Origin: Candidatus Poseidoniales archaeon
Lineage (GTDB): Archaea; Thermoplasmatota; Poseidoniia; Poseidoniales; Poseidoniaceae
Assembly (NCBI GenBank): GCA_038144595.1
Contig: JAYQOB010000008.1
Coordinates: 151,871 to 215,870 of the forward strand
Direction of reading: 5' to 3'
DNA length: 64,000 nt
Numbering within the stretch: position 1 is the stretch's first letter; every line of letters starts with the position of its first letter. Positions 5,947 to 47,670 of the stretch are shown piece by piece. The notes below the pieces were generated by a model. It was not told the DNA's origin and made no database searches. It saw only the letters and a program-made list of their open reading frames with translations. The position numbers and the translations under genes are program-made.

Positions 5947-6018
5947 GCGAGCGTAGTGTAGTGGTTATCACCGGGCGTTGCCAACGCCTGAACCCGGGTT
6001 CGAGTCCCGGCGCTCGCA
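5947..6018 (+). tRNA. tRNA-Gly (anticodon GCC); genomically encoded CCA follows (6019-6021)
   Basis: Manual fold. Acceptor stem gcgagcg/cgctcgc. D-loop agtggtta. Anticodon stem gggcg/cgcct with loop ttGCCaa. T-arm ccggg-ttcgagt-cccgg. Discriminator A. Confidence 0.85.
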
Positions 6019-38189: not shown

Positions 38190-38245
38190 TCGAAAGCCCT
38201 GCGAGCCCTCTGATTGGGTCAAAACGAATCAGTGGGCTTGTCGGA
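38190..38245. repeat. left terminal inverted repeat of the AT-rich island, with an internal hairpin (agccctctgatt-loop-aatcagtgggct)
   Basis: ~50/55 nt match to the reverse complement of 40043-40100. Confidence 0.7.
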
Positions 38246-40042
38246 TTATCTGATTCACCCCATTGAATAAGGATTGAACAATGTACCAATTGGATTAATT
38301 AAAATTCATTCGCATTAAGCATTCGTTAGGATCATCTTGTGATTTGGGAAATGCTTGGAAAAAAGCAGAGAAATGGCCATCAGAAGATCCTGAACCTTCC
38401 GCATCTGTTGTCAAAAGAAAAGAGAGCGCTTCATCAAACATGACGCAATATCGTTTGGGATTTATTCCAACTCATGATCAAGGACAAGTCTTTCGTAATT
38501 GTTCTCCATGGACTGGGAAAAAAATGCTGGAGGGTATTTCCCGGCACTACGAGGACTTAATGGGTGCATATTGATCCCGTTGAAACCATCTTCGACGATG
38601 TTTCGACCCTTCAGTGGGCTAATGAGATGAAGAGGTGTCAATTTGATTGAGACATCAATCATAACAGATGAGATTAATCAGTCGTCTGGCAAAGGCGTTA
38701 GACAAGTGAAGAAATTCAAAATTCGATATTTCTTGCGAAAGTCAACAAATACTCAATTTGAAGAAAATTGTATTCCAAATTCAGCAACGGGAATGCACAA
38801 ATTCCATTCCTTGGATGATTTCGACTGAGTTTTGATGATTCCAACAAACAAATGCCAATGCATCAAATTCTAATCCGTTCTCGGTTTCTGCTTCCCAAGC
38901 GAGATTCACACTGAATTAGCCGAAACAAATGAACATTTAATTGTGTTGCAAATCCGTTGATATCAAAATCAACATGGCTTATTTTCGTGGTTTGGTTCAA
39001 GAACTCATGCATCAATCATTGTTGCCCATCAAAACATCCAGTTAACAATTTTCAATTTGTAATCACAAGGATTCGCAGGAAAACACCAATTCGTCGATGA
39101 ATTTGCAGCATGTTTAATGCATGGTTCAATCCGTTAATCGTTTTCTTTTAAATTCCATCACCGATGGATTTCGCTCGGCAGAAATGAGCATTTTCCTCAC
39201 GCTTAAACCAATTTTCAACAACAATCCATTGGACATGCTCCCTGCATCGTTCCATTCTTAGCACCAATTCTGATTCAGCGCTAAACCAACAATCATTATG
39301 AAAAAAAATACGTTCACTCTTTGTGATATGGAAAAGCAGATTCCAGATTGAATGGAACAAGAGGACAAGAATGTTGAAATTTGGACATGCTCATACCATT
39401 TCTTATGAAGATTAAAATCTGAACTCATATTGCAAGATTTATTTTCTTAGGGAAAATTGATGTTCCAGATTGAAATTCATCAGGTCCTGTTAATCTCAAT
39501 CCGTCAATTTTGGACTCGAAAACATTGTGTAAGCATGGAGGACTGCTCACTACACAGGAAAAACGTTATAATCTGAGCAGACAGATGAGTGAAAGGATAA
39601 ATTGGTACTCTGCCGGGATTCAAATGATTATCTCCATGGGCAAATCAATTTTTGGATCCGAGGATGGAAAGGAGAAACATCAACGAAGTATCTCTTTCTT
39701 GCTTGACCATTGTATCGGAATTTGGTTCTCATTGGTTTTTTCACACTTTTGGATTCGGGCACGAGTCCAATTCAAATTTTTCTTCGTCCCAATCATGGAA
39801 TGTGAATTTTCTTGTCGTAGTCGTATTGGCAGATCGTTCACTCTCTGGCTCCTGTAAAAACAACTCCAAAACAAGTGGCGAGAATACCTCTTCATTGGAT
39901 AAAGGGAAAAAAACGACATAAGCACATGGCTCACAATTTCTTGGAATTTAGCAAAACAAAAATCGATTCTTTTCGTCATGTTTCTGCGGCTTGCATTGGC
40001 GAAATCCGTTGATTCAATCTTTATCTAACCGAATGAGGGTCA

Positions 40043-40100
40043 ATGCACAAACCCACTGATTCGTTTTGACCTCATCAGAGGGCTCGCAGTGGGCTTTGTC
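40043..40100. repeat. right terminal inverted repeat of the AT-rich island
   Basis: Reverse complement matches 38190-38245: aaagccc..tgcgagccctctgat..ggtcaaaacgaatcagtggg. Confidence 0.7.
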
Positions 40101-40214: not shown

Positions 40215-40538
40215 TCAGAGTTTCTCATCGCTGTTGGTCATGAAGTTGCCTTCACTGTCAACGATGATGGGCGTTCCCTCGACCCACTCAGGGCAGTTCT
40301 CTGACACCCAGGTGCGGGTGGCCCATTCACAGATGTCATAGCCGCCAGACAGGATGCCGGAGCGCTTGATGTAGCCGACCTTGACGATGTCCTTGTCCTT
40401 GGAGAGCACGTTGCCCAGCTGCTGGCTGGTGGTGCCATGACGCATGGTGCTGTTGATGTACTCCAGAATCTCTGCAGTGTTTCGTGGTCGATCGCCTAAG
40501 AATTTCTTGATTTTTTCACGGATGCGTGTTGTTTTCAT
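40215..40538 (-). CDS. small winged-helix (wHTH) DNA-binding protein (107 aa)
   Basis: TAEILEYINSTMRHGTTSQQLGNVLSKDKDIVKVG helix-turn-helix-like segment. Intermediate GC. Abuts the right IR of the island. Confidence 0.45.
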   Translation of the reverse strand: MKTTRIREKIKKFLGDRPRNTAEILEYINSTMRHGTTSQQLGNVLSKDKDIVKVGYIKRSGILSGGYDICEWATRTWVSENCPEWVEGTPIIVDSEGNFMTNSDEKL

Positions 40539-40713
40539 GGTTGGTCCCTCCTGTCATTTTTTGAGCGGCCTGATTGGAAATGTGCCACTAAGGTTGAGGA
40601 GCGAGGCCGCTGATATAATGGTTCCTCCTCGGATGAACGATTTGGTTACGTTTGATGACTCAATTGCGGTGTATTTCCAACACTGCGGTACGAATATGTA
40701 AGTTATTTTTCAC

Positions 40714-40724
40714 AGTTCCACTGG
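40714..40724. promoter_or_regulatory. perfect archaeal mini-ORB-like dyad TTCCAGTGGAA (read on the minus strand) in an AT-rich divergent intergenic region
   Basis: gttccactggaaatg. Identical to the canonical origin recognition box core bound by Orc1/Cdc6 in Sulfolobus and Pyrococcus origins. Confidence 0.45.
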
Positions 40725-40808
40725 AAATGTATAACTAAATTTAACTTCAAAGATTTTTTATTTGCAAAAGCACTGGCCAAACCACTCCCGGGCATGCCAA
40801 GGTGACTT

Positions 40809-43316
40809 GTGATGAAACATCGCACCATCCGATCAACCGCTCAACGCCAAATTCTGGTCTGGTTGCGCCATGGTCCCTCAACGGTTTCAGAGATCGCCAA
40901 GCAATTCTCCATGCGAATGCCCCACGCCTCGCTTGCATGCCGACAACTGAGAGAGGCTGGGCTGATAACACGAGACGAACGCGGAGGGCTTCGAAACGCG
41001 CCCATCTACCTGAGCCAGTTCGGTCATGAACGGCTCGAAGAGGACGCGCTCGGAAAAATGCAGCAGTATGCGGGGGCTCTCGCCTCATCTCGCCATCCCT
41101 TGGTGCTTCATGCCGATGAGACCAACGTGCTCCTTGCTTACATGGAACCCCCTGAATCCTCCTTCGTTTTCGTCGGCGAACGACCAGGTGATGGCTCCAC
41201 TTCCTCCAGTGGAAATTTAGGGGGGGCGTGGGTCTTGGCGCCACGCGATGCTGTCACGTGGTACACGCTCAGTGATGCAACCGTTTCTGCACCTCCTGCG
41301 CCGAGAGAATCCAGCACGCTGGCAGCGTTTGAATTGACGCAACAACGCATTGGTTTGGTCCGTGGCGTTGTGCTCGAGCAGCGCGGCCATCGCGGTTTGG
41401 TAGAAGGGCAGTCGTTCACCATGCGTGCACGACCAGGCCTGCCCGGCCCCTCCTTCCTCTCACAAGGTGAAGTTGAGATTGGCACCTTACCGGGGTTGAA
41501 CGAAGGCTATGCACCGTCCGGCGGACTCTTGGCCCACCTTCGGTCCGCTGCCCATCGAACCTTGTTGCTTGGAAACATCACGCATGGCGCCTTTGCGCTC
41601 AGCGACTGTCCTTCCTCCTCACCTGTGCCGTTGCCGTATGCTGTCCTGCTGCACTGGCTTGCATTGAAACACCCGCGCATGGCGTTGGCTCGGCGCCAAG
41701 AACGTTATCTTGAGTTGGTCAAGGAACTTGAGACGAAGGTCAACCAAACGACCTCATCGCTCATGCGTTCACTTCTTCTCGAGTTCGGAGAGCAACAATG
41801 GACCCATGATGTGTTGCGGCCCGGTTGGTTCAACACCCACGGTGTGGGTGAGCGAGCCGTTGTGGCTGTGCTTCACCACGTCATGGAGGTGGGTTGGCTT
41901 CCATTTGTGATGGATTGGGCCTTTGAACAACCGAATCCTCCAGTTTTGTCTCGTTGGCTCACCCACCCGGCCTGCAGAGCGGTGGTGACGCGCCATGGTT
42001 CTCTACCCGAATCAAAGGGGAGCGCCCTGTTGGTTGACGGTCAAGACTTGGGTACGGTTGACGTTGAGTTGAGCAGATCGGTGAAGTTTGACCTCAACCT
42101 GAACCTCGACGAGGTGGAGTCGAATGCTTCTCGCCAACGAATGGATGCGGTGCCGAGCAACGCAGAAGAGTTGTTGACCGCCTCAGTTCGTCATCCAGAA
42201 CAGGTGTTTTCGTCGCCTTCACCGGAGGGATTGACTGGTCAGCGCCTCACCGAAGCGCTCCACCTGTTCCCGACGGGCGATGAGGGCAGAGCCAATGAGC
42301 TGGAATCCACCGACCCACTGGCGTCGTGGATCGCCTCGCCTCCGAAGCATCGTCCTGCCCGGTGGATTCGTCTGCGAGACCGCCTTCCCGGCGGTTGGGT
42401 TGAACTGATGCCCGTCCACGATGTGCCCTTGGCCGATCTTCCCTTTGCCTTGGCTTCAGGCGGGCGTTCATGGCGGCGTCAGGCACTCCAGCGAATTCAT
42501 GCCGAGGCAGCCCACGACATCACCACCGTGCTGCGCTGGCGTCAGCATCTCCAACCGGACGACGGGCATCGTTTTGCTGTGGCCACCTGCATGCTATGTT
42601 CGCTCACCCCTTCGCTTTCAGAGCATGTTGCTCTGTTCGAGGACGCTAGTCGTGCATGGTTTGAGGCTCCCATGAACGAGCAAGATGTGTTGGAATGCCT
42701 CTTCGGGCCGTCCACAACGGGTCACGATCAGGCCTTGCTTCAGCGGTGGATGGACCGTTCCATGCTCCAGCCAAAAGGTTCCATGTTGCGTGCGTGGGCC
42801 ATCGGGTTGGGCATCGCCCAACGCCAGGAACCATGGCTGCCTGAAACAGAGCGAACCCTCATGGAAGTGCTTCCCTCGACGTGGTGGTCACCTTTTGCGC
42901 AGCGTTGGCTCACGACCCAACTGTCCAGTCAAACCGGCCGCACGTGGCTCGCCAACTTCGAGTGCAGTTGGCCTGCCTTGTTGGCCCGAGCCCACGGCGA
43001 GCGTTCCCTCTTCCCCGGCCATGCTGGTGAACACCCCGGCTTCACCCTTGACTCCACCTCGCTTCTTCCGGTTCAACTTCTGCCTGAGGGGGTTGGTAAG
43101 GCGGCATTGACGGACGTGCACGCCATGGTGCATGCGCTTGAACAGGGCGCGCCGGTCCCGGTCCTCTCGACGCATCCGTCGGCGGGTTGGCTGGTCCGTC
43201 CGGTTGAACAATGGCCCGTGTTTGGAAGGGATGTCATGGCCGTGGGGGACCCGGACATCGGCGAGGTGTTGTTCACGCGGAGCTTCCACGCCCGCCATCT
43301 ATCCTCACGCCGATGA
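40809..43316 (+). CDS. large hypothetical protein (835 aa) with an N-terminal winged-helix DNA-binding domain and no recognisable catalytic motif
   Basis: STVSEIAKQFSMRMPHASLACRQLREAGLITRDERGG (ArsR/MarR-like wHTH) at residues ~20-60. The remainder is Leu/Ala/Arg/Trp-rich with no Walker motifs. Confidence 0.55.
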   Translation: MMKHRTIRSTAQRQILVWLRHGPSTVSEIAKQFSMRMPHASLACRQLREAGLITRDERGGLRNAPIYLSQFGHERLEEDALGKMQQYAGALASSRHPLVLHADETNVLLAYMEPPESSFVFVGERPGDGSTSSSGNLGGAWVLAPRDAVTWYTLSDATVSAPPAPRESSTLAAFELTQQRIGLVRGVVLEQRGHRGLVEGQSFTMRARPGLPGPSFLSQGEVEIGTLPGLNEGYAPSGGLLAHLRSAAHRTLLLGNITHGAFALSDCPSSSPVPLPYAVLLHWLALKHPRMALARRQERYLELVKELETKVNQTTSSLMRSLLLEFGEQQWTHDVLRPGWFNTHGVGERAVVAVLHHVMEVGWLPFVMDWAFEQPNPPVLSRWLTHPACRAVVTRHGSLPESKGSALLVDGQDLGTVDVELSRSVKFDLNLNLDEVESNASRQRMDAVPSNAEELLTASVRHPEQVFSSPSPEGLTGQRLTEALHLFPTGDEGRANELESTDPLASWIASPPKHRPARWIRLRDRLPGGWVELMPVHDVPLADLPFALASGGRSWRRQALQRIHAEAAHDITTVLRWRQHLQPDDGHRFAVATCMLCSLTPSLSEHVALFEDASRAWFEAPMNEQDVLECLFGPSTTGHDQALLQRWMDRSMLQPKGSMLRAWAIGLGIAQRQEPWLPETERTLMEVLPSTWWSPFAQRWLTTQLSSQTGRTWLANFECSWPALLARAHGERSLFPGHAGEHPGFTLDSTSLLPVQLLPEGVGKAALTDVHAMVHALEQGAPVPVLSTHPSAGWLVRPVEQWPVFGRDVMAVGDPDIGEVLFTRSFHARHLSSRR

Positions 43317-43709
43317 GTTGATATGGAGTCGGCCAAAGGCCACATTACCGTACCTGCAACATCAGGCTGAGCGACTGTGAAATGAGCAATGACGTCTGAC
43401 ACCACGTGTACGGCCGCAATCGAAGACTGGGACGACCCTTCGGGGAGTGACTTCCGGTGCAAATGCGGTAAACCATCGGTGGGTTATGGGTCCTTGTGCG
43501 ACGCAAGAATGAACGCAAGACAACCACCTTACCGGACAGTACGCCCCGACACCGAGGGTCAGGCCTCGGAGGAAACTGTGAACAAGGCCGTTAGGTGTTG
43601 GGGCACAGTCCCATGATGCCCCTCTCAGCGGGAGACGGGGCGATGACCTCAAAGGCCCGTGGCTGAACCAGCCTTCATGGGAGAGGCGCCCCGCTTCAAC
43701 CGATGCTTG

Positions 43710-45813: not shown

Positions 45814-46434
45814 TCAATCGATGTTTTCGTCGCCAGGTGGGACGCGGCTGGCGTGATTCAAGGCCACACCTGCTGCCATGAGGGCGATGGTGACCGAATA
45901 CACGCCAAGGTCAATCCAGCCCTTGTTGGCGAAGCCGAAGTAGAGGTAGAACGCAAGGCCGAGCAAGAGGCACCATGCTGCCATGGTTCGCTGGCCACCG
46001 GCCACCGAGGTGTCGTTGAGGGCCGTCCACGTGTCGTTGATGAGAAGGCCACGGAACCAGTCGGCGACCGGTTGTTGTTGGTTGATGGTCCGGGTGCCCA
46101 AGGCGATGAGGCCTGCGCATCCTGCGATGAAGATGGTGTCGCCAAGGACCTCATAGTGGAAGCCATCCTTTGCCTCACCAAAGGCGGCGTTGGTGGCTTC
46201 GAAGGTGAGCAGGCCGCCCCAAGAGACGTGGTAGGTGGGGTGAATCATGCCAAACATGTTCAGAACGGCGAGCACCAAGCCCCAAAGGCCAACGCACACC
46301 ATCACGGACGCATAAACGGGCACCTTTCCGGTGGTGGATTGGGCGGTTGCATCGTCGCTCATGGGCCCTGCGACTTGCGAACTGCATTTAAGCACACCGA
46401 AACGGGCGAACGCTGGAGGAAACCGCCACCTCAC
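45814..46434 (-). CDS. hypothetical integral membrane protein
   Basis: 5-6 TM helices. Its start overlaps the orc1 stop. Confidence 0.4.
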   Translation of the reverse strand: MRWRFPPAFARFGVLKCSSQVAGPMSDDATAQSTTGKVPVYASVMVCVGLWGLVLAVLNMFGMIHPTYHVSWGGLLTFEATNAAFGEAKDGFHYEVLGDTIFIAGCAGLIALGTRTINQQQPVADWFRGLLINDTWTALNDTSVAGGQRTMAAWCLLLGLAFYLYFGFANKGWIDLGVYSVTIALMAAGVALNHASRVPPGDENID

Positions 46435-47670
46435 AACGAGGTTTGGTGGTGGTAGTTGGAATTGAACACCGTGCGCATCTCTTCCTCGGCGGTGCCCATG
46501 ATTTCACGGACGTCCACGTTGGCCGGGATGCAGGAATTGATTTCCTTGGAACGACCATAGCGGCCCTTGCTGACCGTGCGTGCGGTGACCAGACCCAGCA
46601 TGTCAAGGTTGGAGATCAAACCGGAAATTCGACGTTGGGTCAGTGGGTTTTGCCGGATGTGCTTGCAGGCTTGGCGGTAAATGTCGTACACTTGGCCGGT
46701 TTGGACGTTGCGCAACCCGTTCTGTTCGTTGAGAAGAATCGCGGCAAGCACCAGTTTTTGTTGGCTGGGGAGGGTGGCGATCACGGGCGTCATCTGGTCG
46801 GATTCAATCTGACTTTGGGCGATGCGGACGTGGTTTTGGTTTACGATGGATTCGCCGGACTGTTCGGCCTTCTCTGCTGAAATTCGCAGCAAGTCCAAGG
46901 CACAACGAGCATCGCCATGTTCCTGTGCAGCCAGCGCCGCACACAACTCGATGACACCGGGTCCAAGGGCCTCGGCGTCAAGTCCTTCTTGGGCGTTGGC
47001 GGAGAATGTCCTGAAGTTGTTCGGCGTCGTAGGGCCGGAACAGCACGTCCAACTGGCCGAGTCGAGAGCGGACACGAGGGTCAAGGAAATCCGTGAACTT
47101 GAGGTCGTTGGAAATGCCGATGACGCACGAGCGGGCGTGCTTGAGCGAGGCGTTCATGCTGGTCAAATTGTACAGCAGGTCGTCGCCAGCCTTGCGAACG
47201 AGGTGGTCAATTTCGTCGAGGACGATCACAAACACACCGCCACGGCGGTCCATTCTTCGAACAAGTTCGTTGAAGACACGGTCGGTTGGCCATCCAGTGA
47301 AGGGGATCTCATCTTGTTCAAAGTCCTCAAGCAGTGAATTTCCGATGTGGCTGAGCACCCGGTACTGCGTGTCGATTTGGCGACAATTCACCATGATGGA
47401 CTCCACCTGTCGACCCATGGTCTGACCCTTGGCTCGAAGGTGGTGGCAGACGTAATCCGTGACCGCTGTCTTTCCGGCACCTGTCACACCGTAGAGTGTC
47501 ATGTTACTGGGGATGTGGCCCTTCAGGGCTTCCCAGAGGTTGTAGGAAATTTTCTCGATCTCTTCCTGTCGGTGAGGAAGTTGAGAGGGGCGGTAATTGT
47601 GACGAAGATGTTCCTTGTTTTTGAAGAGGGTTTTCTGGGAAACAAACTTGTCGAAGATGTTGGTTTCCAT
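46431..47670 (-). CDS. orc1: Orc1/Cdc6 replication initiator, frame-shifted (CCC run at ~46990)
   Basis: Walker A LYGVTGAGKTAV, Walker B VIVLDEIDHL, sensor regions and the C-terminal winged helix (HGDARCALDLLRISAE). N- and C-terminal parts lie in ORFs 46978..47670 and 46431..47084. Confidence 0.8.

What the first reader, a model, noticed from the sequence alone, without database searches (positions are those of the whole stretch)
40215..43316. Divergent pair of winged-helix proteins, one 835 aa with no known domain, flanking the AT-rich region
Seen directly: a 107-aa wHTH protein (40215-40538, minus) abuts the island's right IR. The divergent 835-aa protein (40809-43316) has an ArsR/MarR-like wHTH at its N-terminus (STVSEIAKQFSMRMPHASLACRQLREAGLITRDE). 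About 770 aa follow with no Walker, nuclease or other recognisable motif. Inference: a large wHTH-anchored protein beside a candidate origin could be a lineage-specific initiator or auxiliary factor (compare Sulfolobus WhiP, a Cdt1-like winged-helix initiator at oriC3). It could also be a plasmid Rep-like or partition protein carried by an integrated element, or a transcription regulator with a large sensor domain. Its host-like GC (~62%) argues against recent acquisition.
Basis: partly seen in the sequence, partly recalled or inferred. Interest (0 to 1): 0.6.

Follow-up and report, generated by a model that had tools for sequence, protein, structure and literature searches.

The report
Origin-box-bearing gene pair of marine archaea
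A gene pair conserved in all Marine Group II archaea carries two binding boxes for the replication initiator Orc1/Cdc6, one written into the large gene's own codons, which probably marks the unmapped replication origin and ties an unknown 834-residue DNA-binding protein to it.

Summary
Both ORFs are real. The window is from a Poseidoniaceae (Marine Group II) archaeon.

- **Small gene:** Pfam DUF3860, about 93% identical to PDB 2OD5.
- **Large gene:** it probably starts at ATG 40812 (834 aa). It belongs to a narrow family found only in Poseidoniales. It has an ArsR-like wHTH, then a beta-barrel plus RecA-like core resembling HerA but with no Walker A, then a 385-aa helical domain.
- **Conserved module:** in more than 75 genomes the order is DUF3860, a fixed 270-bp spacer, the large gene, and a roughly 265-nt structured RNA. 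Four genomes have this whole block inverted.
- **AT-rich island:** it is strain-specific cargo in a hypervariable slot, not a conserved origin.
- **Key result:** the spacer holds an invariant mini-ORB (TTCCACTGGAAAT, 40716-40728). Codons 133-139 encode a full origin recognition box with G-string (41204-41227). Its synonymous sites are frozen in 72 of 72 sequences, while the rest of the gene is saturated.
- **cdc6:** it lies 3.3 kb away and has no ORB beside it.

I infer that Orc1/Cdc6 binds here, and that this is most likely the chromosomal origin or its core loading site. What the protein does remains inferred.

The parts
40215..40538 (-). DUF3860 gene (107 aa), the small partner of the divergent pair. 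It is extremely conserved (85-100% aa identity, dN/dS 0.02-0.05).
   Evidence: Present next to the large gene in every locus with enough flank. Fused to a SAP domain in L078 and duplicated in tandem in L076.
40539..40811 (.). Divergent control region. Its length is fixed (266-271 bp to the aligned start in 75 loci) and it is conserved in blocks, with no consensus RNA fold.
   Evidence: Blocks include the DUF3860 Shine-Dalgarno CCTCC, GCTGATATAAT (40609-40619, TATA-like on the minus strand), TTGGTTAC, GTGT..ACAC, ATGTAAGT, the mini-ORB, TAACTAAATGTAAC, and the AGGTGA Shine-Dalgarno.
40716..40728 (+). Mini-ORB TTCCACTGGAAAT (dyad, no G-string), at the centre of the AT-richest 90 bp (40689-40778, GC 0.27-0.30).
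   Evidence: Invariant TCCAnnGGAAAT in 75 of 75 spacers. Identical to the Pyrococcus mini-ORB core (PMC1904270). AT profile.
40812..43316 (+). 834-aa gene. Residue numbers follow the 835-codon ORF that starts at 40809. Residues 9-75 are an ArsR-like wHTH. Residues 96-449 are a beta-barrel plus RecA-like core (HerA-like, no Walker A). Residues 450-835 are a helical domain.
41204..41227 (+). Full ORB (dyad plus G-string) CTCCAGTGGAAATTTAGGGGGGGC, written into codons 133-139 (S-S-G-N-L-G-G), which form a low-confidence loop of the beta-barrel.
   Evidence: TCC, GGA, GGG and GGG codons have zero codon entropy in 72 distinct genes, against a gene mean of 2.0 bits. Matches the archaeal and Methanomassiliicoccales ORB consensus (PMC4153887). 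Kept in MGIIb loci. pLDDT below 50 at residues 128-136.
43344..43611 (+). Conserved structured RNA of about 265 nt, 30-60 nt after the stop codon. It belongs to the module because it moves with the pair in the inverted loci.
   Evidence: (58 pairs, 12 with compensatory changes, none broken). No Rfam family matches.
38199..40089 (.). Context only: a strain-specific AT-rich island with 43-nt terminal inverted repeats, in the hypervariable DeoC/DUF3860 slot. It is not part of the module.
46431..47670 (-). Context: the orc1/cdc6 gene, the presumed reader of the ORBs. In this window it is split by a 2-bp deletion. Its 182-bp upstream region has no ORB.

Best explanation
**Shown**
- The finding is one side of an order-wide chromosomal module of Poseidoniales (Marine Group II archaea). 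The order is: DUF3860 gene (minus strand), a fixed-length 270-bp control region, an 834-aa gene, and a structured RNA of about 265 nt.
- The 834-aa protein has three parts. The first is a basic ArsR-like winged helix. The second is a beta-barrel plus RecA-like core with the architecture of HerA-type ring ATPases, but no Walker A motif, so it is a pseudo-ATPase. The third is a 385-residue helical domain.
- The module carries two canonical recognition boxes for the initiator Orc1/Cdc6. A mini-ORB lies in the AT-richest 90 bp of the control region, directly upstream of the large gene's likely promoter. A full ORB (dyad plus G-string) is embedded in codons 133-139. There it is held by selection on the DNA, not on the peptide.

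**Inferred**
- Orc1/Cdc6 is encoded 3.3 kb away and has no ORB next to its own gene. It probably binds these two boxes.
- The locus is most likely the chromosomal replication origin or its core Orc1-loading site. The AT-rich stretch around the mini-ORB would be the unwinding element.
- The large protein would be an origin-linked, DNA-anchored scaffold, possibly an oligomer like its HerA relatives. Its transcription would be coupled to Orc1 occupancy of its promoter.

**Excluded**
- The neighbouring AT-rich island is an unrelated strain-specific insertion.
For: **Family and synteny**
- 61 homologues of 825-840 aa, all from Poseidoniales.
- Only 196 hits among 1.84 billion representative proteins.
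- 71 loci in species-representative genomes. All but one are titled as archaeal (Poseidoniales, or older or broader names for the group). The exception carries a bacterial title and looks mis-binned.
- Relatives also occur in Thalassarchaeaceae.
- The pair, the spacer length (266-271 bp) and the RNA are constant. The unit is inverted as a block in 4 loci.

**ORBs**
- Exact TCCANTGGAAA occurs 112 times in 1.12 Mb of loci, against about 2 expected. All but one hit lie at the two positions.
- Codon entropy is 0 at S133, G135, G138 and G139 in 72 distinct genes, against a mean of 2.0 bits. No such cluster exists in six neighbouring genes.
- The consensus is TCCAnnGGAAnnnnnGGGGGG.
- It matches published ORBs: CTTCCAGTGGAAACGAAAGGGGT and GTTCCAGTGGAAATGG-AGGGGTA (PMC4153887), and the Pyrococcus ORB and mini-ORB (PMC1904270).
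- The G-string is read by the AAA+ domain of Orc1 (PMC3936714).
- MGIIb genes keep the element as CTTCCACAGGAACCGAAGGGGTC.
- Positive control: 10 of the 80 loci fetched from a metagenome scan for the same pattern also hold a cdc6 gene. Most of those matches lie within a few hundred bp of it, and some are clustered.
- These are the only full ORB and the only perfect mini-ORB in the 64-kb window.
- The spacer has no RNA fold.

**Fold**
- Models reach pLDDT 84.4 (full length) and 87.7 with pTM 0.84 (middle domain).
- Foldseek hits HerA at E 7.7e-6 and 2.6e-5, with TM-score normalised by query length of 0.46-0.50. F1, FliI, RAD51, DnaB and KaiC follow.

**Precedent**
- An ORB cluster inside the dp1 coding sequence of Thermococcales is bound by Cdc6.
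Against: **Against an origin**
- There are only two boxes, about 489 bp apart (501 bp in one clade). Both read in the same direction. Characterised origins usually have inverted ORBs closely flanking the unwinding element.
- The mini-ORB dyad is nearly symmetric, so its orientation is ambiguous.
- No binding or firing data exist.
- GC skew gave no signal.
- In MGIIb and L077 the cdc6-upstream region is long and AT-rich (404-485 bp, GC 0.32-0.43). It could be the true origin, with non-canonical boxes.
- A single mini-ORB binds Pyrococcus Cdc6 only weakly.
- I could not scan whole genomes for other ORB clusters.

**Against the proposed protein role**
- Nothing shows that the protein acts in replication. 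An embedded ORB says where Orc1 binds, not what the gene product does.
Confidence: 0.5

Rival explanations
1. The boxes are real Orc1/Cdc6 sites but not an origin. They would be regulatory or titration sites, like datA in E. coli or oriC2D of Haloarcula. They would tie expression of the large gene and/or DUF3860 to the initiator's state. The origin would lie elsewhere, for example in the cdc6-upstream region.
For: - The mini-ORB abuts the probable BRE/TATA of the large gene.
- There are only two boxes, in direct orientation, about 489 bp apart.
- ORB clusters with a non-origin, titrating role are documented (PMC3936714).
- The cdc6-upstream regions are AT-rich in MGIIb.
Against: - No canonical ORB lies beside cdc6 in any clade examined. 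In the window's clade that region is only 182-210 bp at 50% GC and is filled by two promoters.
- The G-string-bearing box is conserved across the whole order, more strictly than anything else in the locus.
Confidence: 0.25
2. This is an ordinary autoregulated pair of transcription factors. The dyads and the other spacer blocks are operators for the two winged-helix proteins themselves. The resemblance to ORBs is convergent, and the large C-terminal part is a sensor or oligomerisation domain.
For: - Divergent wHTH pairs with shared operators are common.
- The spacer has several other conserved boxes, such as GTTAC/GTAAC/GTAAG repeats, that are not ORBs.
- The recognition-helix region of the large protein (MRMPHASLACRQLR) is nearly invariant.
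- The protein evolves faster than its neighbours (dN/dS 0.11-0.20), unlike core replication proteins.
Against: - The match covers the full bipartite ORB (dyad, 3-4 nt, G-string), not only a palindrome. Its spacing is the same as in Methanomassiliicoccales.
- The 11-bp dyad has half-sites too close together for a typical wHTH dimer (established knowledge of Orc1-ORB structures).
- An operator 400 bp inside the gene, frozen at synonymous sites in every lineage, would be unusual.
Confidence: 0.15
3. One reading: the AT-rich island 38.2-40.1 kb is the origin, and the large protein is its lineage-specific initiator or auxiliary factor.
For: - The island has low GC and terminal inverted repeats.
- One 1-mismatch dyad lies at 39225.
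Against: - The island and its repeat arms are absent from all 75 related loci, including the closest (96% identical protein).
- The slot varies from 117 to 4936 bp.
- The island has no ORB with a G-string.
Confidence: 0.03
4. The pair belongs to an integrated plasmid, virus or defence island, as a Rep, partition or HerA-type defence ATPase.
For: - HerA-like folds are frequent in mobile elements and defence systems (general knowledge).
- The protein evolves fast.
- A hypervariable slot lies next door.
Against: - The chromosomal position is fixed across two families of the order, with vertical-looking divergence.
- GC is host-like.
- No integrase is present, and there are no PADLOC, PHROGs or BFVD hits beyond the wHTH.
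- There is no Walker A, so it cannot be an active ATPase.
Confidence: 0.03

Closest known systems
Archaeal oriC with ORB / mini-ORB boxes bound by Orc1/Cdc6 (Pyrococcus, Sulfolobus oriC1, Methanomassiliicoccales)
   Same: - Same bipartite box (TTCCAGTGGAAA, 3-4 nt, GGGG), and the same mini-ORB.
- An AT-rich stretch lies beside a box.
- A single orc1/cdc6 gene lies within a few kb.
- Pyrococcus also has ORBs inside a coding sequence (dp1) that Cdc6 binds.
   Different: - Only two boxes, in direct orientation, about 490 bp apart.
- They are not adjacent to cdc6.
- One box is a permanent part of a protein-coding sequence in every member of an order.
- Origin activity is untested.
Sulfolobus WhiP / oriC3 (a non-Orc initiator gene linked to its origin)
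   Same: A winged-helix protein gene is physically coupled to an origin-type element. The gene and its element behave as one movable unit.
   Different: - No sequence or fold similarity to WhiP/Cdt1 was detected.
- The boxes here are classic Orc1 ORBs, not WhiP sites.
- The protein has a HerA-like pseudo-ATPase core.
HerA (HerA-NurA end-resection helicase; FtsK-HerA superfamily)
   Same: The middle 350 residues fold as an N-terminal beta-barrel plus a RecA-like core. HerA chains are the best matches (E 7.7e-6, TM-score normalised by query length up to 0.50).
   Different: - No Walker A in 121 relatives.
- No Pfam HerA/DUF87 signal.
- No NurA partner nearby.
- It has an extra N-terminal wHTH and a 385-aa helical C-terminus.
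ArsR/SmtB and MarR winged-helix regulators
   Same: The N-terminal 60-70 residues align with ArsR-family structures and profiles. The gene is arranged divergently with a second small DNA-binding-type gene.
   Different: - It is eight times larger.
- It has no metal-site motifs.
- Scores fall below the curated cut-offs for this sequence.
Haloarcula hispanica oriC2D (ORB cluster that titrates Cdc6)
   Same: ORBs placed away from the unwinding region, with a possible regulatory role.
   Different: oriC2D has 11 intergenic boxes beside cdc6E. Here there are two boxes, and one is coding.

Membership tests
ArsR/SmtB-type wHTH regulators | wHTH domain scoring above the curated profile cut-off | tested here: inconclusive
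   - Window protein: HTH_5 scores 18.3 bits against a cut-off of 22, and NCBIfam ArsR scores 28.6 against 55.
- The family profile hits ArsR structure 3f6o at E 6e-6, and 33 of 40 members hit HTH_5 with best E 9e-7.
ArsR/SmtB-type wHTH regulators | Small (about 100-120 aa) dimeric repressor made of the wHTH alone | tested here: not met
   The protein has 834 aa, about 740 of them beyond the wHTH.
Orc1/Cdc6 initiators | AAA+ ATPase module with Walker A/B plus a C-terminal winged helix | tested here: not met
   - No AAA+ profile hit.
- No Walker A in 121 relatives.
- The wHTH is N-terminal.
WhiP / Cdt1-like initiators | Tandem winged-helix domains homologous to Cdt1 | tested here: not met
   - Foldseek against PDB returned ArsR, MarR, IclR and RbkR-type wHTH chains plus P-loop ATPase folds. 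No entry among the 50 matches shown is described as Cdt1 or WhiP.
- Only one wHTH is predicted.
HerA / FtsK-HerA ATPases | HAS-type beta-barrel followed by a RecA-like core | tested here: met
   - The middle-domain model has pTM 0.84.
- HerA chains 9x1l_A, 7f6d_A and 7wrx_B are the top hits. The first two have E 7.7e-6 and 2.6e-5, the third E 3.1e-3. TM-score normalised by query length is 0.46-0.50 for the two Deinococcus chains and 0.36 for 9x1l_A.
- F1, FliI and RAD51 follow.
HerA / FtsK-HerA ATPases | Walker A (GxxxxGK[ST]) and Walker B motifs | tested here: not met
   - No Walker A in any of 121 full-length members.
- The conserved motif LPxxVLxxWLxxxHPR (found in 70 of them) appears to occupy the place of the P-loop; this placement is read from the alignment and predicted secondary structure, not from a structural superposition.
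- A Walker-B-like hhh[DE]W is kept.
HerA / FtsK-HerA ATPases | Sequence-profile membership (Pfam DUF87/HerA) and a NurA partner gene | tested here: not met
   - No such Pfam hit in 40 members at E up to 10.
- The neighbours are DUF3860, DeoC, PPAT/DPCK, a GT2 glycosyltransferase and Cdc6.
Archaeal replication origin (oriC) | ORB boxes matching the Orc1/Cdc6 consensus | tested here: met
   - Full ORB at 41204-41227 and mini-ORB at 40716-40728, compared with published sequences.
- Conserved in more than 72 loci.
Archaeal replication origin (oriC) | Two or more boxes in inverted orientation flanking an AT-rich unwinding element | tested here: inconclusive
   - The AT-rich 90 bp surrounds the mini-ORB.
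- The boxes read in the same direction and lie about 489 bp apart.
- The mini-ORB dyad is nearly symmetric: it has 1 mismatch when read on the other strand.
Archaeal replication origin (oriC) | Adjacent orc1/cdc6 gene | tested here: inconclusive
   cdc6 is 3.3 kb from the gene's stop codon and about 5-7 kb from the boxes. It keeps that position in all standard-order loci but is not adjacent.
Archaeal replication origin (oriC) | Initiation of replication in vivo, or autonomous replication activity | not testable with these tools
   This needs marker-frequency analysis or an autonomous-replication assay. The organism is uncultured.
Pfam DUF3860 (small partner) | Profile match above the gathering score | tested here: met
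   E 3.6e-34, 117 bits against a cut-off of 27. E 1e-58 to PDB 2OD5.

The most novel reading that the evidence does not exclude
The replication origin of Marine Group II archaea overlaps the 5' end of a lineage-specific gene. Its product is a winged-helix-anchored HerA-like pseudo-ATPase, possibly acting with DUF3860 and the adjacent structured RNA. In this reading the product is a new origin-associated factor that works alongside Orc1/Cdc6. The gene, the origin boxes and the RNA together form one heritable, invertible 'origin cassette'.
Probability: 0.22. Interest if true: 0.85.

Novelty: new variant of a known kind. Interest (0 to 1): 0.68.

Why it matters
Marine Group II archaea are among the most abundant archaea of the surface ocean, and none is in culture. 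I found no published origin map for them.

- **A concrete origin candidate.** Two order-wide, sequence-defined Orc1/Cdc6 boxes give a testable candidate. Read-coverage peak-to-trough analysis on existing metagenomes could test it and give in-situ growth-rate estimates for the group.
- **Dual coding.** The full ORB frozen inside a reading frame is a clean natural example of a protein loop (S-x-G-N-x-G-G) that is invariant because of the DNA it encodes. It shows how 'conserved motifs' can mislead protein annotation.
- **A new family to follow up.** The 834-aa family (wHTH plus HerA-like pseudo-ATPase plus helical domain) and its ultra-conserved DUF3860 partner, which already has a crystal structure, become specific candidates for origin or chromosome biology in this lineage.

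Tried and rejected
**Searches that found nothing beyond the wHTH**
- Pfam, NCBIfam, PDB sequences, PADLOC and PHROGs on the single protein and on 40 relatives.
- Foldseek of the full model against BFVD viral structures.

**Structure searches**
- Foldseek of the full model against PDB was dominated by wHTH hits, with one weak HerA hit. It became informative only after the middle domain was modelled alone.

**RNA checks**
- Rfam over 36-50 kb, over the spacer, over the RNA region and over the whole window found only a tRNA-Gly at 5947.
- I first read the downstream RNA as an SRP RNA from a GGUCAGG...AAGGCC resemblance. I rejected that because no SRP or RNase P model scores, even at E up to 10.
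- I suspected hairpins with covariation in the spacer. RNAalifold finds no consensus pairs there, so the conservation is at the DNA level.

**Origin tests that gave no answer**
- GC skew at 1-kb scale and at four-fold sites is dominated by coding-strand bias and gives no origin signal.
- A search for ORB-like repeats upstream of cdc6 in four clades found nothing canonical.

**Other**
- The alignment that included distant members was too divergent for the genome scan, so I used the closer one.
- The island's repeat arms were tested as conserved boundaries and are unique to this window.
- Literature searches for DUF3860 and for a Poseidoniales origin found nothing.

Full report
**Observation.** Both ORFs exist at the stated coordinates.
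- The small one (40215-40538, minus strand, 107 aa) is a clear member of Pfam DUF3860 (E 3.6e-34). It aligns with the crystal structure 2OD5, a hypothetical protein, over residues 1-100 at E 1e-58.
- The large one was listed from GTG 40809 (835 aa). Every homologue starts one codon later, and a GGTGA Shine-Dalgarno lies 7 nt before ATG 40812. The product is therefore probably 834 aa.
- The N-terminal winged helix of the large protein is real but weak for this sequence alone. A profile of the family hits ArsR structures at E 6e-6, and 33 of 40 relatives hit Pfam HTH_5.
- Beyond residue 80 no sequence library recognises anything.
- The AT-rich island and its 43-nt inverted repeats are also real.

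**Who has it.**
- Homologues are all 825-840 aa and come from Poseidoniales.
- An exhaustive profile search of 1.84 billion representative proteins finds only 196 hits.
- A scan of one genome per species returns 71 loci. All but one are titled as archaeal: Poseidoniales, Poseidoniaceae or Poseidonia, or older or broader names for the group. The exception carries a Verrucomicrobiales title and looks mis-binned.
- More distant relatives of 757-910 aa belong to Thalassarchaeaceae, the other family of the order.

**Context.**
- In all loci the order is DeoC, a variable gap, DUF3860 (minus), a spacer, the large gene (plus), a second spacer of about 360 bp, PPAT/DPCK, a GT2 glycosyltransferase, a 182-aa gene (minus) and orc1/cdc6 (minus).
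- The DUF3860-to-large-gene spacer is 266-271 bp in 75 of 75 loci.
- In four loci the pair is inverted as a block between unchanged flanks.
- The DeoC/DUF3860 gap ranges from 117 to 4936 bp. In relatives it holds an ion-channel gene, an unknown ORF, or nothing.
- The window's AT-rich island and its repeat arms occur in no other locus. That includes the closest relative, whose large protein is 96% identical. The island is strain-specific cargo in a hypervariable slot, not a conserved origin.

**The key result.**
- The 270-bp spacer is conserved in blocks and has no consensus RNA structure. One block is the invariant dyad TCCAnnGGAAAT (window 40716-40728, TTCCACTGGAAAT). It lies in the AT-richest 90 bp of the region, where GC is 0.27-0.30.
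- A second copy lies inside the large gene: CTCCAGTGGAAATTTAGGGGGGGC at 41204-41227, encoding S-S-G-N-L-G-G.
- Exact TCCANTGGAAA occurs 112 times in 1.12 Mb of related loci, against about 2 expected. All but one hit lie at these two positions.
- I aligned 72 distinct copies of the gene by codon. Synonymous sites are saturated everywhere, with mean codon entropy 2.0 bits at conserved residues of four-fold or greater degeneracy. Four codons are the exception: Ser133 is always TCC, Gly135 always GGA, and Gly138 and Gly139 always GGG. None of six neighbouring genes shows such a cluster.
- The peptide lies in a loop that both structure models predict with low confidence. The 'invariant motif' is therefore conserved as DNA.
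- Its consensus, TCCAnnGGAAnnnnnGGGGGG, is the bipartite origin recognition box of archaea. Published versions are CTTCCAGTGGAAACGAAAGGGGT (archaeal consensus), GTTCCAGTGGAAATGG-AGGGGTA (Methanomassiliicoccales, a related lineage) and the Pyrococcus ORB and mini-ORB (PMC4153887; PMC1904270).
- The G-string is the part read by the AAA+ domain of Orc1/Cdc6 (PMC3936714).
- Thalassarchaeaceae genes keep it as CTTCCACAGGAACCGAAGGGGTC.
- As a control, I scanned metagenomes for the same pattern and examined the 80 loci returned. Four are homologues of this gene, each with DUF3860 beside it. Ten hold a cdc6 gene, and in most of those the match lies within a few hundred bp of it. Three loci carry two to four matches each, and one of these is among the ten with cdc6.
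- Within the 64-kb window these are the only full ORB and the only perfect mini-ORB. The 182-bp region upstream of cdc6 has none.

**The protein.**
- AlphaFold2 with the family alignment gives a confident multi-domain model (pLDDT 84.4). Residues 1-95 form the wHTH, 98-270 a beta-rich domain, 279-430 an alpha/beta domain and 450-835 an all-helical domain.
- Modelled alone, residues 96-449 give pLDDT 87.7 and pTM 0.84.
- Foldseek against PDB returns HerA chains first: E 7.7e-6, 2.6e-5 and 3.1e-3. TM-score normalised by query length is 0.46-0.50 for the two Deinococcus chains and 0.36 for the Thermococcus one. F1-ATPase subunits, FliI/EscN, RAD51/RadA, DnaB and KaiC follow. This is the barrel-plus-RecA-core architecture of ring ATPases.
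- None of 121 full-length relatives has a Walker A motif. A conserved LPxxVLxxWLxxxHPR motif appears to stand where the P-loop would be. I read that placement from the alignment and the predicted secondary structure, not from a superposition. A Walker-B-like hhh[DE]W is kept. I read the core as a pseudo-ATPase.
- The wHTH is basic (pI 10.8) and the rest of the protein has a pI near 6.
- The gene is under purifying selection but evolves fast: dN/dS is 0.11-0.20 overall and 0.18-0.24 in the middle domain. DeoC, DUF3860 and Cdc6 show 0.01-0.05.
- No viral, plasmid or defence relatives were found.

**Mechanism.**
- Shown: the conserved module, the domain make-up, and two canonical ORBs under DNA-level selection at the 5' end of the gene.
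- Inferred: Orc1/Cdc6 binds them.
- Further inferred: this is the chromosomal origin or its core Orc1-loading site. The AT-rich stretch at the mini-ORB would be the unwinding element, and the large protein would be an origin-linked DNA-bound scaffold. Its promoter abuts the mini-ORB, so its expression would follow Orc1 occupancy.
- Weaknesses of this reading:
  - There are only two boxes, in direct orientation, about 489 bp apart.
  - cdc6 is not adjacent.
  - The cdc6-upstream regions are AT-rich in some clades.
  - There is no skew signal.
  - There are no functional data.
- Rivals: Orc1 sites with a regulatory or titrating role, or operators for the two wHTH proteins themselves.

**Comparison with known systems.**
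- The DNA elements match archaeal oriC boxes. Coding ORBs have a precedent in the Thermococcales dp1 gene.
- The coupling of a gene to an origin element recalls WhiP/oriC3, but no similarity to WhiP, Cdt1 or AAA+ initiators was found.
- The protein works like neither a classical ArsR repressor nor an active HerA. It fails the defining tests of both families on size and on Walker A.
- I file it as a new variant of known kinds: an origin-box-bearing, lineage-specific wHTH / HerA-like pseudo-ATPase.

**Side findings.**
- The second 'spacer' is a gene for a structured RNA of about 265 nt (43344-43611). It has 58 predicted pairs, 12 of them with compensatory changes, and matches no Rfam family.
- The RNA follows the large gene in all 72 loci and in MGIIb. 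It moves with the pair in the inverted loci, so it is not a leader of PPAT.
- The window carries 2-bp deletions in both cdc6 and PPAT/DPCK relative to its closest relative. These are probably assembly errors.

Noticed in passing
window 43344-43611 (+); also L001-L078 at the same relative position: An unclassified structured RNA of about 265 nt lies 30-60 nt after the large gene's stop codon. It has 58 predicted pairs, 12 with compensatory changes and none broken. It is present in 72 of 72 loci and in MGIIb, and it moves with the gene pair in the inverted loci. No Rfam family matches, even at E up to 10. An invariant ACAG follows each of the two 3' hairpins, which suggests an H/ACA-type guide RNA, but this is untested.
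   Followed up: partly
window 38199-40089: The AT-rich island (GC 0.38) is bounded by 43-nt inverted repeats that are 93% complementary. It is unique to this genome and sits in a slot that varies from 117 to 4936 bp among relatives. It has no long ORF, and its nature (a decayed mobile element?) was not resolved.
   Followed up: partly
window about 46985 (cdc6) and about 43710 (PPAT/DPCK): Compared with the closest relative (L067), the window has 2-bp deletions that break the frames of orc1/cdc6 (CAA--CGCCC) and of the PPAT/DPCK gene. The second falls inside its GGTFDxxHxGH motif region. These are likely assembly errors, or less likely pseudogenes, so indels in this window should be treated with care.
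   Followed up: yes
L078 9187-9705; L076 9204-9741: In Thalassarchaeaceae the DUF3860 partner is fused to a SAP DNA-binding domain (172 aa) in one genome and is present as two tandem genes in another. This fits a DNA or chromatin role for DUF3860.
   Followed up: no
L058, L059, L068, L069: The block DUF3860 / spacer / large gene / RNA is inverted as a unit between unchanged PPAT and DeoC flanks.
   Followed up: yes
L051 (NZEQ01000010.1): A contig titled 'Verrucomicrobiales bacterium' carries this archaeal locus, including DUF3860, the large gene and Cdc6 at 95% identity. It is probably a mis-binned contig in a public MAG.
   Followed up: no
window 40539-40811 (alignment A3): Besides the mini-ORB, the spacer has other invariant boxes of unknown reader. 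These are GCTGATATAAT, TTGGTTAC, ATGTAAGT and TAACTAAATGTAAC. GTTAC and GTAAC are reverse complements about 100 bp apart. They are candidate operators for the two wHTH proteins.
   Followed up: partly
L076 15946-16352, L077 16645-17048, L078 17169-17653: In MGIIb and L077 the cdc6-upstream intergenic region is long (404-485 bp) and AT-rich (GC 0.32-0.43), without canonical ORBs. In the window's clade it is 182-210 bp at 50% GC. It is a possible alternative origin site in those lineages.
   Followed up: partly
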